DNA of 64,000 nt. Source: the human T2T-CHM13v2.0 reference genome, Homo sapiens. Of the stretch, positions 2,866 through 63,460 are shown one piece after another. The stretch is from NCBI RefSeq assembly GCF_009914755.1, contig NC_060931.1; one strand, given 5' to 3'. The notes under the pieces were generated by a model that saw only the letters and a list, made by a program, of their open reading frames with translations, did not search any database and was not told the DNA's origin. Each line of letters starts with the position of its first letter. Position 1 is the first letter of the stretch. The position numbers were made by a program, and so were the translations under genes.

Positions 2866-3456
2866 TTTTATTGTGATTTTTTATTCTTGGCATTAGAGTT
2901 CAGTACTCCTGGGCAGCTTTACTGGTTTTTTGATGTATAAGTAGGGCACCAAGAGCAAGAAACAGAGCTGGACAGAGACTGGAGGACATTTCATGGGGGT
3001 CAAATGTGAGTGGAGGCCTAGGAAGTGATACACAAGGCCTGAGCAAGTCTCGTAAGTGGAAAAGCCACAGGCTAGAGAGTATGTTTTTTAACATCAAAAG
3101 CTTTGAACACACACAGAGAACACCCACATTTCTCCCTCTGTGTACTCCCCAAACACATTCACTAGTACAAGCCTCTGCGCTGGGGACTGCTGCTACAGAA
3201 GGATTAGATTAAAGCAATAACACAGGAAGAAAATCAGGCCAGACCACATTTCCATATTAAAATTTAGAATACAAATTTTGGTGTTTTCAATGGTCTAGGC
3301 CATAGAGAAGTTGTTTATACCCTCCGTCCCCCATCAAACTGAATTTTACTTTATTCCACCTAGAGAAGAACCTGGCCTTGTTTAAACACCTAAAAAAAAT
3401 CTAAGGGCTCAAGAATATTGTGATTCTTCACATTCCTGTGTTTTAACCCTCAGGCA

Positions 3457-3636
3457 CTAAATAAGTATTTGATATCAAATACTCTAAATAAGTATTTGAT
3501 ATCAAATACTCTAAATAAGTATTTGATATCAAATACTCTAAATAAGTATTTGATATCAAATACTCTAAATAAGTATTTGATATCAAATACTCTAAATAAG
3601 TATTTGATATCAAATACTCTAAATAAGTATTTGATA
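3457..3636. repeat. 27-bp minisatellite, 6.7 identical copies, each containing a perfect 20-bp palindrome
   Basis: Unit CTAAATA-AGTATTTGATATCAAATACT; copies start at 3457, 3484, 3511, 3538, 3565, 3592 and 3619 (partial); no mismatches. Confidence 0.98.
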
Positions 3637-4844
3637 AATGAGGGCAGCAATGAATAACCTGAACACTGATAGTACCAGATCTTGGACATTTTGTGAATAT
3701 GTGCATATGGCAAGTCAGGGTAGAGTATGCCAGGCTTTCTCAAATGTGTGAACCTTCAGTGAGGTCTGAGCAGCATTCAGTCCTTCAGTATCCAGTAATC
3801 CTGTCTTCGTGAATTAACACCAGCTTCCCAGATCAATTTCTGACTGGGTGCTTTACATGAGAATCCATCTAGGTTGCACTGCTGCCTTTAGAAACAATCT
3901 GGAATTCTGAGGAGCCCAGAACATTTATAATTTCTCTCAAGGGAGACGCTTCCCAGCAGCACAGTGCCAGAAGAAGATACACATCCATGGGCCCACCTCT
4001 GGCTTCAGCAGGGCTTTGTCCAGCTAAGCTCTGAGAAAGATGGTTTAAAAAAAAAAAAACAGAGAAGCCCAGCTGTCTTCACCTAGGGTCCCCTGCTTAG
4101 TAACCTTCCCAACAGGGGCTACACAACCTTCTTCACTGGCTGCTTGTTTCTCTGAGTGTCGTGCCTGGAGATTCCTCCAAAAAAACGTATCCCAAACCTG
4201 GGCTGCCTAGGCCTCTGTCATTAGGAAGTCCAGGAGCCCTCAGATACCAGAAGCCTGGTGTTTTGAGGGATGGCTCAGAGCTTTGCCCCTGCTGGTCCTG
4301 GCAGCCTTTATAGCTGGAGATTGCAGTTCAATGCAAAGGGAGCCATTTGACAGTGTTTGCACCTTATCATTTCCAAAGAGTCTCTGCTCTTGAGATAGTT
4401 GGTGCTCTCAGCTGTCTGTCAAGTTCAAGAACTTTTTGTCTTAAGAATATCTGAGTGTTGGGCCTGAGGAAACTAAAGGAAACTCACCACAAGAGACATT
4501 ATTTGTGGGGCTCAATTTTCCCCAGGGTTGTATCTTTCTGCTATTCTTTTGTACCATGTCAGTCTGGGGACATAATTGGCCCTCTTCCTGTGGAACTGGT
4601 TCTTAAAGTTCTTTATAATTCTGGCCTGGAGCTGCTGGGAGGTCTCTGTTTTGGTGAAACCGCTGTTCCATGGTGAATCAGTCACTTCCTCCAGGCTGCC
4701 TTCTTTCTGTCCTGCCACGAGGTCAGGGACACTGCCATTTGGGGACAGTCTGGGCTTTCATCTATATTTCGTCTGGCATGGGAAACTGGATGGACACTCC
4801 AGTCTGAACAAATAGACCCAAGGGGATTGTTGAAGCTGACCCTT

Positions 4845-6060
4845 GGAGGGGATTTCAGTTCTTTATTATAAACTGTTATATAAAATATATTTATCCTCCT
4901 ACCTTGAGAAATATACCCTCATAGTGACAAAAAGCAAAGGATATATGTAAAGCTACAGTTTTTATATGTCTGAAGGCTGGCAAAATGTCTGCTAAAGTTA
5001 TTATGGCATACATCTGGCTTTTCTGTCTATGGGTTGTGATGGTTGAATGAGTAATAAAATGTATACGTAACTTATAAATTTGTATTTGTTCCATCAGTTA
5101 AGTTTTCTTGCCTTTATTTCAGAAAAAGTACTTTGTTGTTATAATCAATATGTTTACATAATTTGTTTTCAACTCATTGTAATTCTCTGAAGGCTTTAAA
5201 AATTGCAATTATATTCAAAGTATATTTAAACATATTTTAATGAGAATATATAAATTGAATAGAAAAACAATCTAAAAGTTATTTTATATGTTTATTAAAG
5301 TCTTTTAAAATATTCAAAATGATCTATTAACTTTAAAAGGTAAAATCCAAGTTATAATTAATATATGCCAAAATTTCATTTCATATATGAACATTTTAAT
5401 TAAATCTTGTTTTTATAGAGATAACACTATTCACATTGTAAATGTTCTATATCCACCTAGTTACCAATATAAAGAATTGGTACCATGATACACATATGAT
5501 GCATGCATGCAAATTTAAGGGTAATATGAAATGTTAATATTACAACATGTTCCTAAATCACCATCTGCAACTTTTCTGAATATTATGTTAATTGAGTAGC
5601 ATGGGAACCAGGAATGTGAACAAGAAGAGAAGCATGAAAAAGGATTCTTGGCATTATTGAGAAATGACACTTTGTTGTAAAAGAATCTATTGCATTTATG
5701 TTATCTTCAGGGAGGAATTTGGTAAGTTTTGTTCTTCTCATAACCCAGCACTATTTTTCTCTTACGTCCTCCAAGAATTCTGAAGCAACATCATCATAAT
5801 CCCTGATTTTTATCAACTTTCAAATTAGGTCATCTTTTCTTTTAAGGATACAGGGAAGAGATACAGAGGCACACTTCCCTAGGACCTGAGCAGTGTGGTC
5901 ATGAGAGTGATGTTAAGTGTTATAGACTATGCTGGGCCAGCTCTGAGTGCCACATCCTGAGTGATAAAGGCATCTGTGTGCTCTTTAATACATTTATTTG
6001 TGGGTGATTGTGGTATGTGGAGCCCTCTAAAATATCTCTTGCCCAGATCTATGAAAAGTA
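4845..6060 (-). mobile_element. Old hAT-Tip100-type DNA transposon remnant (Zaphod/Arthur-like)
   Basis: Minus strand 5170-5103 reads ENKLCKHIDYNNKVL/FSEIKARK with one frameshift, resembling a hAT transposase C-terminus; very AT-rich interior; end-like ggagccctctaaaatatctcttgcccag. Confidence 0.55.
5984..5998 (-). terminator. Candidate polyadenylation signals (AATAAA 5998-5993, ATTAAA 5989-5984)
   Basis: Minus strand caAATAAAtgtATTAAAgag; first AATAAA downstream of the stop at 7514 (a lone ATTAAA occurs earlier at 6844-6839). Confidence 0.45.
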
Positions 6061-18310: not shown

Positions 18311-18806
18311 GAATATGTCACAGAAGGTCAGATAAGTGAGAGCTACAAAAACTCAGAGAGATAATGAGAGAGAAGGGGGTGGAGAGAGAGCAAAAGGGAA
18401 AGAGAGAGGGTGGGAAAATAGCATTGGAAGAATATTTTAATGATATTTCAGGCCATAGAAATATTGTGAAATTTTATGAATATGTCACAGAAGTTCAGAT
18501 AAGTGAGAGCTACAAAAACTCAGAGAGATAATGAGAGAGAAGGGGGTGAAGAGAGAGCAAGAGGGAAAGAGAGAGGGTGGGAGAATAGCATTGGAAGATT
18601 ATTCTAATGATATTTCAGGCCATAGAAATATTGTGAAATTTTATGAATATGTCACAGAAGTTCAGATAAGTGAGAGCTACAAAAACTCAGAGAGATAATG
18701 AGAGAGAAGGGGGTGAAGAGAGAGCAAGAGGGAAAGAGAGAGGGTGGGAGAATAGCATTGGAAGATTATTCTAATGATATTTCAGGCCATAGAAATATTG
18801 TGAAAT
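18311..18806. repeat. 167-bp tandem repeat, 3 copies
   Basis: Copies start at 18311, 18478 and 18645; copies 2 and 3 identical over 162 bp; copy 1 differs at 6 positions. Confidence 0.98.
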
Positions 18807-20634
18807 ATAAGATTAATTAAAGACAACCAGAATTTTTTGGTTATGGATAATGAATAAATAAAATCATGCAGCCAAATTAGCTCATTTCCATCTCCTATTT
18901 ATAGACATTGTATTTAGATAGACTTTTTCACAAATAAATACCAAATTTGGAGCTAACATGACTGAAGGCATCTCTACTTTCTGTTCTCTTCTCTTTCACT
19001 GCTCTTAGGTGAGTCAAATAAGCTCTCAGGGCCTTTACTTTAAACTGATACTCTTCTAATTCCTGTTAATGCAATCTGTAGGAGAGACATTAACAATGTA
19101 TTTTGAGGACTCCTGATAGTAAAGTGCTGTTCTAGCCACTACTGCAGTTATGAAAGTTAAAATTTAAAAATATCCACCATTGTACCAATATTTAATTAAC
19201 AATACTCTATCACTGTCAGCACCAGAGGGCCTTGAATAAACTATTGTTCTGGCTTGGTTGACAGACAGCTTGTCAGGAAATGATCAGTATTGGCCATGAT
19301 TTAGGGCTAATTTCATGGATGTTTTCCAGTTTCCGCGATCTTCCTTTCCCCTCTTCCAAACAAAAGTGCTTCTGAAAATTTCTGTTTAACATCTTTCACT
19401 TTGAATAAAGAAAACACAAAACATACCCCTCGTGGCTGGTATTGGTGAAATTACTTCTCTGGAGAGACCAGCAGATGAAGGTCTTGTTTGAGAGGCACCA
19501 GGCAGAGGTTTCATTCTGTATCAGAGACCACACTCAGACCTGCAACCTGAGATCTATCTCTCCCCCTCCCTTCACCTACCTACACACATACACCACCTAA
19601 ATGAACACAGATGGCTGGCACCCAGAGTAGGCATCTAGGAAAACAGCCGCAGGCCTCTCTGTTTGCTGTCATTTCATTGTACAAACAGACAGCCTTCGAG
19701 ATGCTGGTGTTGTTTCTTAATCTGAGATCATTCTTGTTTGGAAGTTTACCCACTTCCTGTTGAGAAATATAGCAAAAGCATCAGAATACCCAGAGCTCGA
19801 TTTGACTAAAACCAAACATTCATTTTAACTCGTTAGATAGTTAAAATCATCGTCATAGTACACTCAAGGTATACTAACTCATGTAGAGGATTATATTTAA
19901 TAAAAGCCACATATTGATATAATCCATATCAGTTCCTACCTGGCAATACATGTTCTTCCTTCAGAGCTGCATAGCATCATCTGATGTATTTGTTTCTCTG
20001 TGTGAAATAAATTAATTATTCAAATGTAATATAAAAGAGTGTAAAGCCAAACTTCACAAATGCTGAAAAATAATCTAAATCTTTATACTGCCCCCCCCAA
20101 CAAATGGAACATATGTTTTCTCCTATTTATTTCTGTATAAAATATGTAAACAATTACCTGGGTTTGGAGGACATAATTATGAAGAGGTTGATATCTAAAA
20201 GGTTATTACTGATTTATAGAACTCTCTAGTTTAATAGAAGACATATTTAGGATAAGAAAAAAAATACTGCTTTCTCCAGGAACAATAAATGTCTCAAAGG
20301 GGAAACGTAAGATTTAAGAGTAATTTTTATTAGACATATATACTACAGTTTGTGAATCTAGCAGGTGTTTCTCATTTGAATGATTTCTACATAATAAAAA
20401 TTTTGTAGAGCTATCTCACACTTTGTAGTATATTTTATATGTCTCAAAATGCAGTGATTAAATTTCATTTCAAGGGCATTTTTTTAAAGTCTGAATTCCT
20501 CAATTTCCCTTCATGGGTTTATAATTCTCAGCCTGAAGATTAAATACCATATTAACAAGTATAAAATATTTATTTAAGCAAGAAATTGAGCTTAATTCTC
20601 CCTGGCATGTGTGCGTATTCTTCCTGGGTCTCCT

Positions 20635-26290: not shown

Positions 26291-27138
26291 GGGTTATGTC
26301 AAAATAGCCTAATACATTCTCCATTCCTTTATTTTCTGATGAAAGAGTAAATTCCAGAATAGAAAAATTTCTCTAGCCAACGATTTCATGCTCAAATTCA
26401 CTGATACGCTGCAGTAATTCATTCAACACATGTTTGAGTTCCTTCTACATGTAAGGCATTGTGCTTGGCACTGGCCATCTTGTTCTGAGGTAGGGGCCAA
26501 ATGAATGTGGACAAGTTATGCAACTTCACCATAAGAGGCATTCTATAATAGGTGATTAATTCTGTTTCAGTCTGAGAAATGGCTTGGATCTCACAGTTTC
26601 TCTAGGGGTCTCTCCCTTTATCAGGCCAATCTAAGACCCAGCAGTGCTGATTCCCTTAAATAATGATTGGCAAGGTCTTCTAACACCCAAGCATTGATCA
26701 AATGCTGAATAAAATAACCCTGGATGGTCAGCAACAGAATACACTGGTCATTATTTCTCTACTAGAAGCATAAGCTTATCTTTAGACATGCAGGCTCTCC
26801 AAAATGGCTATGATCAGCTCGGTTGTTAAAAACATGCCTATTTAGTGAGTTGTTAAACTCTTTGATCCCCATTATAACCTCCAAGGACCTATCAATCTAT
26901 ATGCTGTTCTGTTTTATAGTTATTATTATTCTTGAGCAATGAGCATTTGGCATCTGAGAGCTCTGGAACTCTGTCTTTTTGAATATAATAGCACAGACTT
27001 GAAAGTAAAAACCTGCTTGCTATTCTGAAAGCCTCTTCTTGCTGGTTGCCCAAGTCACCACTACAACTTTTTTCTCAGCAGGCAAAAAGCCCTGATTACC
27101 TTTTGTAGGAGAAAAAGGATTAGTCTAGGAAAACTCAC

Positions 27139-37201: not shown

Positions 37202-37886
<685 letters not shown>

Positions 37887-42900: not shown

Positions 42901-43300
42901 TTCATTGATTCAACAAAACTATTTTTTTTGAGCACTTTCTATCTGCCAGGCGTTGCTTTAGGCATTTAGGATACATCAGTGAACAATAAAAACCCAATTT
43001 CCTCTCCTCTTAGGACTTAATTCTAGAAAGAAGAGTCAGACCAATCAACAGCAGACAGACCAGATGAGTAAATTACACAGTATTTTAGGAGGGGATACAT
43101 ACTACGGAAAAAGAAAGGGTAGATCAAGGTAAGTGGGATTGGAGATGTGAAGTGGGAGTGGGTGGGTTGAGATTTTTTAAATAGGTTGGTGATGAGGAAG
43201 AGGGATCACTGAGGAATGAAGTTGGAGTGAAGACTCGAAGGAGGTGAGGGAACAAGCCATGTTAATATCTGGTGACAGAACACTCCAGGCAGAGGGAGTC
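42901..43300 (-). mobile_element. L2a 3' end
   Basis: ttcattgattcaacaaa...tgagcactttctatctgccaggc...atacatcagtgaacaa...ctccaggcagaggg. Confidence 0.8.
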
Positions 43301-63033: not shown

Positions 63034-63344
63034 ATATATACCAGAAATAACAAGTTGAAGAAAAAAATTCCATTCACATGTTTAATGAAATTATAAATTT
63101 ATCCACTCAACAAGATTTTGTTATTGTGTTGCTCCTACAATATGGCACTGAGCCATTTAAAATATAATGGTAAGCTAAAAACAAACACAGTATAAAATTC
63201 TAGAAGAATTAGAAATTCTATTTACAACTGGAAATGATGGGATCCATATGCATGAAGTTATCGCATTGAAAAAAAGCCTTACTAAAATATATAAAATATG
63301 ATTTAAAATAATGTGTTGAAAAGGATGCAATATCCTTGGATAAG

Positions 63345-63460
63345 CCAGAAATAAGCCTCCTGGGGCAAAAACTTTGGATTCATTGCTGCAACCTCAGCAC
63401 TCAGACCAGGGCCTGTTTCATGATATGTGCTCAATAAATACTTGTTGAATAAATGAAATG
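63345..63460 (+). mobile_element. L2 3' tail
   Basis: gtgctcaataaatacttgttgaataaatgaa. Confidence 0.7.

What the first reader, a model, noticed from the sequence alone, without database searches (positions are those of the whole stretch)
3457..3636. Perfect tandem array of 20-bp palindromes grown from an L2-like tail
Seen: 6 full and one partial identical 27-bp units, each a 7-bp linker CTAAATA plus the perfect palindrome AGTATTTGAT|ATCAAATACT. Collapsing the array restores caggcactaaataagtatttgataaatga, resembling the L2 3' tail (aggcactcaataaatatttgttgaatga). Each unit is therefore 18 bp of ancestral sequence plus a 9-bp inverted copy (TCAAATACT). Inference: a fold-back template switch created the palindrome, and hairpin-assisted slippage or iterative re-priming amplified it; zero divergence implies a very recent, probably polymorphic event. 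It could form multiple hairpins or cruciforms, and it multiplies forkhead-like TATTTGA sites on both strands. It lies about 2.4 kb beyond the candidate poly(A) signals.
Basis: partly seen in the sequence, partly recalled or inferred. Interest (0 to 1): 0.7.

Follow-up and report, generated by a model that had tools for sequence, protein, structure and literature searches.

The report
Minisatellite seeded by template switch
This is a real, already catalogued 180-base human tandem repeat whose unit likely began as one copying error (a short stretch copied backwards, then forwards again) and likely grew by slippage; it shows no sign of a function.

Summary
The array is real: window 3457-3636, period 27, 6.67 identical copies, six 20-bp palindromes found nowhere else in the genome. 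A published VNTR catalogue lists a repeat of the same period, length and copy number at the matching GRCh38 position (chr7:96479802-96479981), so an assembly artefact is very unlikely. Non-reference alleles were called in only 6 of 2504 people, and no TFBS or DNase cluster overlaps it. That survey could see only 2.67-4.67 copies. Each unit is 18 forward plus 9 inverted bases, the anatomy of a known '4 before 1' template switch or miniature inverted triplication. A fold-back fits only the bottom strand (7-nt loop); there the zero-spacer palindrome forms at the return step. One unit folds as a complete 27-nt hairpin, which likely aided slippage. Two claims weaken. The L2 match is 28 bp at 1.9 bits with no upstream homology. 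Zero divergence bounds the age only below about 17-37 Myr. The ape allele was not found. Verdict: a clean example of known mutational processes, probably neutral.

The parts
3457..3636 (.). Perfect 27-bp minisatellite, 6.67 copies
   Evidence: same period, length and copy number catalogued at GRCh38 chr7:96479802-96479981
3457..3474 (+). First copy of the 18-bp forward segment, the inferred ancestral stretch
   Evidence: ancestral status is inferred, no ape allele was seen
3475..3483 (+). First 9-bp inverted insert, the reverse complement of unit positions 8-16 (9-11 bp, given a 2-bp junction ambiguity)
3464..3483 (.). First of six zero-spacer 20-bp palindromes; inferred to be the return junction of a bottom-strand fold-back
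3474..3500 (.). One-unit hairpin register: 10-bp stem and 7-nt loop (3484-3490), exactly 27 nt, predicted -6.2 (top) and -6.6 (bottom) kcal/mol
3619..3636 (+). Last copy of the 18-bp forward segment, running into unique right flank
3452..3641 (+). Extent of the weak L2-tail-like 28 bp (3452-3474 plus 3637-3641) that the array interrupts
   Evidence: 1.9 bits, E 6.9; 14 of 12794 window 31-mers score as high

Best explanation
The locus is a perfect 27-bp minisatellite that likely began with one short-range template switch and likely grew afterwards by hairpin-assisted slippage. Step 1 (inferred): synthesis of the bottom strand stopped at the end of an 18-base stretch, folded back around a 7-nt loop (a 2-bp stem with a 5-nt loop plus a 2-nt stutter would give this), copied 9-11 bases backwards, then returned to the parental template at a 2-base microhomology and recopied the stretch. 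The product is forward-inverted-forward (1.67 units), and the return junction is by construction a zero-spacer palindrome. Step 2 (inferred): the 18-bp direct repeat at 27-bp spacing let whole units loop out; each is predicted to fold as a complete stem-loop, so slippage or unequal exchange added identical units up to 6.67. Shown: the array, its anatomy, its uniqueness, and rare non-reference alleles in a published survey. It is probably neutral.
For: Exact four-point fits on both strands; only the bottom strand gives a loop of 3 nt or more, and a 2-bp stem with a 5-nt loop exists at that stop. All linkers face one way and both junctions are identical in 6 of 6 units, as expected if later units copied a finished first unit. 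A one-unit loop-out is -6.2 kcal/mol against a mean of -1.08 and a best of -5.5 among 300 shuffled units; the whole array is -51.8 against -13.9 +/- 9.0, with 0 of 300 as low. Whole-unit alleles exist in 6 of 2504 people. '4 before 1' switches and DUP/IN/DUP products with hairpin slippage are in print.
Against: The ancestral allele is deduced, not observed; no ape or long-read data were found. The priming stem is only 2 bp and needs an extra 2-nt stutter; in the exact register that junction has no microhomology. An inter-strand switch on the top strand or a repair-polymerase insertion gives the same product. In the SIT paper, slippage removed these structures in E. coli and yeast rather than amplifying them. 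One of the 300 shuffled-unit arrays came close in energy (-51.0).
Confidence: 0.62

Rival explanations
1. Same two-step history, but the founder arose by an inter-strand switch on the top strand, or as a short inverted templated insertion during end-joining (polymerase theta or delta type) at a staggered break that duplicated the 18 bases.
For: The top-strand fit is also exact, with a 2-base self-complementary overlap at the first switch. Inverted templated insertions of about 2-35 bp with 0-5 bp microhomology are described (PMC11724301 passages).
Against: It needs a 7-base jump with no microhomology at the second switch, and a staggered cut is not evidenced.
Confidence: 0.2
2. All six units were made in one burst, by repeated fold-back and return at a fixed stall site or by rolling-circle copying of an excised 27-nt circle.
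For: Zero divergence and uniform orientation; intermediate alleles of 2.67-4.67 copies are rare (6 of 2504).
Against: Repeated fold-back would have to repeat the same 2-nt stutter six times. The rare intermediates show that unit-step changes occur. Perfect identity over 162-180 bp is compatible with many millions of years.
Confidence: 0.12
3. The array is a functional or selected regulatory element (multimerised forkhead or GATA sites) acting in the SEM1-DLX5/6 region.
For: It multiplies TATTTGA 13-fold and the GATA core 13-fold over the reduced allele. The wider locus holds bone and craniofacial enhancers and association signals (PMC11434253 passages).
Against: No TFBS or DNase cluster overlap in the catalogue row. 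TRTTTAY has 0 matches and WGATAR 1, the same as the reduced allele. No RefSeq functional element lies here, and the locus was not found in the GTEx VNTR table. The tested enhancer eDlx36 is roughly 110 kb away (using a recalled hg19 offset).
Confidence: 0.04
4. The array is an assembly or library artefact of CHM13.
For: Palindromic perfect repeats can trouble sequencing (general knowledge).
Against: GRCh38 carries a 27-bp, 180-bp, 6.667-copy array at the matching position, and reads from 6 samples were genotyped there.
Confidence: 0.01

Closest known systems
Short-range template switch mutations, '4 before 1' type (Walker et al. 2021, PMC7954356; Loytynoja 2022, PMC9435742)
   Same: A reverse-complement copy of at least 8 bases taken from adjacent sequence, with the return point before the departure point, which creates a duplication and a perfect inverted repeat.
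   Different: In the passages read these are single events; here the product is the unit of a 6.67-copy array. Loytynoja notes that VNTRs evolve through switching, but the example shown is a dinucleotide tract.
Small inverted triplication (SIT), Lei et al. 2026, PMC13334657
   Same: DUP/IN/DUP anatomy, fold-back or sister-strand switch then return, and hairpin slippage acting on the product.
   Different: Much smaller: 18/9-11/18 against a median of 148/160/148, with the insert below their 20-bp minimum; spacer 7 and 0 against 30; junction 2 and 0 bp against 6. It is germline and amplified, whereas theirs were somatic or mutant events that were eliminated.
Catalogued human minisatellite VNTR TRid 183156134 (Eslami Rasekh et al. 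2021, PMC8096271)
   Same: chr7, period 27, 180 bp, 6.667 copies at the expected GRCh38 position.
   Different: The row gives no sequence, anatomy, mechanism or function; identity rests on position, period and length.
AT-rich minisatellites of FRA16B (33 bp) and FRA10B (about 42 bp)
   Same: AT-rich unit of similar size with structure-forming potential (81% AT here; PMC9714581 passages).
   Different: Those become fragile at several kilobases, and 14 copies were reported to stall forks in vitro. This array has 6.67 copies and no evidence of fragility or large expansion.

Membership tests
Minisatellite VNTR | Tandem unit of 7 bp or more, at least about 2 copies | tested here: met
   27 bp x 6.67
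Minisatellite VNTR | Copy number varies among people | tested here: met
   listed as a private VNTR, count 6, in the published table; not regenotyped here
Short-range template switch mutation | Inverted segment of at least 8 nt, exact reverse complement of nearby sequence, all four bases present | tested here: met
   9-11 nt with an exact four-point fit; criteria
Short-range template switch mutation | Ancestral allele known from an outgroup or second haplotype | not testable with these tools
   no ape or other human sequence is held; the tables searched gave no row
Small inverted triplication (SIT) | DUP/IN/DUP order | tested here: met
Small inverted triplication (SIT) | Reported size range: inverted fragment 20 bp or more, spacer about 30 bp, junction about 6 bp | tested here: not met
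   9-11 bp insert, 7 and 0 nt spacers, 2 and 0 bp junctions; it works like a SIT but is not filed as one
L2 (LINE-2) 3' tail remnant | Similarity to the terminal L2 motif | tested here: inconclusive
   ungapped score reached by 14 of 12794 window 31-mers, but only 1.9 bits, E 6.9; the reference arms came from the mir-325 model, whose mouse locus is listed as L2a/L2b-derived
L2 (LINE-2) 3' tail remnant | Homology continuing upstream into the L2 body | tested here: not met
   the match covers profile positions 171-198 only, whereas three other remnants in the window cover 105-125 profile positions at E 1e-9 to 5e-5
microRNA or other Rfam family | Score at the family's gathering threshold | tested here: not met
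   0 of 53 matches reach it; the best is 28.4 bits against 140
Fragile-site AT-rich minisatellite | Kilobase-scale expansion and inducible fragility | not testable with these tools
   180 bp in both references; longer alleles are invisible to the survey
Human-specific expanded VNTR | Absent or single-copy in apes | tested here: inconclusive
   no coordinate hit in the 467-locus table, which is a filtered subset; the parent list was not held

The most novel reading that the evidence does not exclude
Miniature forward-inverted-forward template switches are a distinct birth route for human minisatellites. Because the new unit is itself a complete hairpin, it primes its own expansion, and alleles should change preferentially by two units (predicted -8.6 kcal/mol per unit for even loop-outs against -6.2 to -7.9 for odd ones). 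This locus, and a 29-bp array on chr15 with the same two-centre layout, would be the first worked examples.
Probability: 0.22. Interest if true: 0.58.

Novelty: new member of a known kind. Interest (0 to 1): 0.3.

Why it matters
How minisatellites with complex units are born is rarely visible, because the founding junctions erode. Here both junctions survive unchanged, so the founding switch can be read to the base and a strand assigned. It also gives a cheap prediction (even-step allele bias) that existing long-read panels can test. There is no evidence of a phenotype or regulatory effect, although the array lies at the edge of the SEM1-DLX5/6 bone locus.

Tried and rejected
Rfam: 53 weak hairpin-type matches, none at threshold. 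Dispersed family or transposon: a 501-bp query found only this locus and one chr15 array, the 180-bp array the same two, and the 80-bp left flank only itself; these DNA searches skip common words, so they do not prove rarity, while the exact-pattern scan does for the 20-mer. An L1-type target-site duplication was considered because 18 bp fits; it was rejected because the insert is only more copies of the target, with no poly(A) or foreign sequence. A top-strand fold-back was rejected because the loop would be -2 to 2 nt. Stable cruciform in relaxed DNA: a 20-bp duplex is -19.4 kcal/mol against -4.3 per hairpin, so it would need supercoiling or single-stranded DNA. Literature: no paper holds SEM1 + VNTR + bone mineral density or the 20-mer; searches listed no paper on a minisatellite born this way, judged from listings and abstracts only. 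Ape and long-read tables: three papers were not held; the others gave no row, with some files unreadable or unsearched, so these are weak negatives. No genome-wide base rate was obtained; a scan of 116,794 bases already held found no unamplified founder of this type apart from the array itself, too small a sample to mean much. Of six other AT-rich loci examined, three gave no qualifying array near the match and three were degenerate AT tracts, not clean two-centre units.

Full report
Observation. TRF reports period 27, 6.7 copies, 100% matches at 3457-3636, and the perfect period-27 run starts and ends at exactly those bases. Six 20-bp zero-spacer palindromes are separated by 7-nt linkers that all face the same way. 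The 20-mer has 6 exact sites in the 3.12-Gb genome, all in this array. A single palindrome of this size is not rare (0.11 expected per window; a 26-bp one lies at 37535), but the inverted 9-mer in that register has a chance of about 8e-6.

It is real and catalogued. I converted the position to GRCh38 using a recalled SEM1 coordinate and searched supplements by coordinate prefix. The supplement of PMC8096271 (searched; the file is cut when stored) has the row TRid 183156134, chr7:96479802-96479981, pattern 27, array 180, 6.667 copies, in Private_VNTRs.txt with count 6 and 'no' in every annotation column, including TFBS and DNase. The row gives no sequence, so identity rests on position, period and length. 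Passages of that paper define private VNTRs as non-reference alleles in under 1% of 2504 people sequenced with 150-bp reads, and state that arrays need about 1.9 copies and must fit in a read with 10-bp flanks. For this locus only 2.67, 3.67 and 4.67 copies are detectable. So those three alleles are rare, but the empty, one-unit, 5.67-copy and longer alleles are untested. The locus was not found in the 467 human-specific VNTR table (PMC8327921, 2 of 3 files searched) or in the GTEx VNTR table (PMC8024321, whose two hits were other loci).

Anatomy. Removing six units in memory leaves an 18-base stretch, and each unit is that stretch plus the reverse complement of its positions 8-16. An exhaustive four-point fit of the one-unit allele gives three equivalent solutions per strand. 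If the top strand was being made, the first switch needs a loop of -2, 0 or 2 nt, too small for a fold-back, followed by a 7-base jump without microhomology. If the bottom strand was being made, the first switch has a 7-nt loop and the return falls at or within 2 bases of the point where backward copying ended, with a 2-base overlap. A 2-bp stem with a 5-nt loop exists at that stop; with a 2-nt stutter it gives the observed junction. On this reading the hairpin that started the event is centred on the linker, and the zero-spacer palindrome is the return junction. This is inference from an ancestral allele that I deduced and did not observe.

Amplification. With DNA parameters the best one-unit loop-out is exactly 27 nt, a 10-bp stem and a 7-nt loop, at -6.2 kcal/mol; 300 shuffled units average -1.08 (best -5.5). 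Loop-outs of 2, 4 and 6 units give -17.2, -34.4 and -51.6, about -8.6 per unit, while 3 and 5 give -22.8 and -39.4. The region folds at -55.3 with z = -16.4 against 200 dinucleotide shuffles, although that control does not keep the repeat; the fairer shuffled-unit control gives 0 of 300 as low, with one close. Both junctions are identical in 6 of 6 units, which favours copying of a finished unit over six separate switches. In duplex DNA a cruciform is unfavourable without supercoiling.

Age. With no substitutions in 162-180 bp and rates of 0.5-1e-9 per base per year (recalled), the 95% upper bound is 17-37 Myr, even without homogenisation. The same length in both reference assemblies and the rarity of mid-length alleles fit a near-fixed allele as well as a very recent one. 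I could not obtain the ape state: three papers were not held, PMC11811171 gave no hit with 3 of 14 files unsearched, PMC4419785 held only about 10,000 characters, and the one supplement of PMC12058530 had no text. Supplements that I could not see may hold the answer.

L2 claim. I took L2-tail-like arms from 18 genomic matches to the mir-325 model; PMC6433296 passages list mouse miR-325 as L2a/L2b-derived and L2 microRNAs as coming from the L2 3' end. I chose that model after it weakly matched the array (E 0.34). For the reading: the reduced 31-mer scores 19.2, reached by 14 of 12794 window 31-mers, and those 14 lie in four tail-like clusters. Against it: a profile of 19 arms matches only 28 bases at 1.9 bits (E 6.9 in the window, 0.065 in 601 bases) with nothing upstream, while three other remnants score E 1.1e-9, 5.3e-9 and 4.8e-5. 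L2 ancestry is possible but unproven, and the mechanism does not need it.

Function. The array lies 1645 bp past the annotated SEM1 3' end and in an intron of predicted lncRNA LOC105375411 (annotation given with the finding). TATTTGA rises from 1 to 13 sites, but TRTTTAY has none and WGATAR stays at 1 (motifs recalled). No Rfam family reaches its threshold. PMC11434253 passages place craniofacial enhancers and bone-related signals in SEM1 introns, roughly 90-115 kb away by a recalled hg19 offset. Nothing ties the array to them.

Comparison. The founding event matches '4 before 1' short-range template switches found in ape genomes (PMC7954356 passages), the template-switch mutations of PMC9435742 (part 1 of 6, passages and 12 of 22 supplement files), and the palindromic insertions of PMC3638132 (passages). 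It has the order but not the size of small inverted triplications (PMC13334657, parts 1-4 of 8), where slippage over the hairpin removed the structure. Short fold-back inversions at breaks (PMC11724301 passages) offer another route to the same product. A separate 29-bp array at chr15:94,587,789-94,588,262 has 12-bp inverted arms around 1-nt and 4-nt spacers and 9.2 perfect copies. The flanks do not match, so it looks convergent. The other AT-rich hits examined were degenerate. Searches showed no paper describing a minisatellite born this way; that was judged from listings only, and most subscription papers are not searched.

Verdict. This is a real, catalogued, apparently rarely variable minisatellite with an unusually legible origin. 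Its component processes are known, its age and function are unshown, and the L2 link is weak. Interest 0.3; new member of a known kind.

Noticed in passing
G000:C15:94587789-94588262 (L004 1377-1850, L034): AT-rich 29-bp minisatellite, 9.2 perfect copies plus degenerate upstream units; each unit has 12-bp inverted arms around 1-nt and 4-nt spacers. It has the same two-centre layout and is about 81% similar to this array without matching flanks.
   Followed up: partly
window 18311-18806: 167-bp unit repeated 3.0 times, 98% matches (6 and 3 differences between successive copies), about 450 bp before the RefSeq enhancer at 19262-19759.
   Followed up: no
window 37535-37560: A 26-bp perfect palindrome inside a short AT-rich repeat (37526-37575) next to a masked repeat; possibly another template-switch product.
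   Followed up: no
window 63343-63454 (+), 42924-43048 (-), 26418-26538 (-): Clear L2-tail-like remnants, unmasked in the supplied list (E 1.1e-9, 5.3e-9, 4.8e-5). The middle one overlaps the start of LOC105375412 exon 43014-43128.
   Followed up: partly
window 5291, 5984, 5993: Minus-strand poly(A)-type hexamers; the one at 5291 sits 10 bases from the annotated SEM1 3' end, the other two about 2.35 kb from the array.
   Followed up: no
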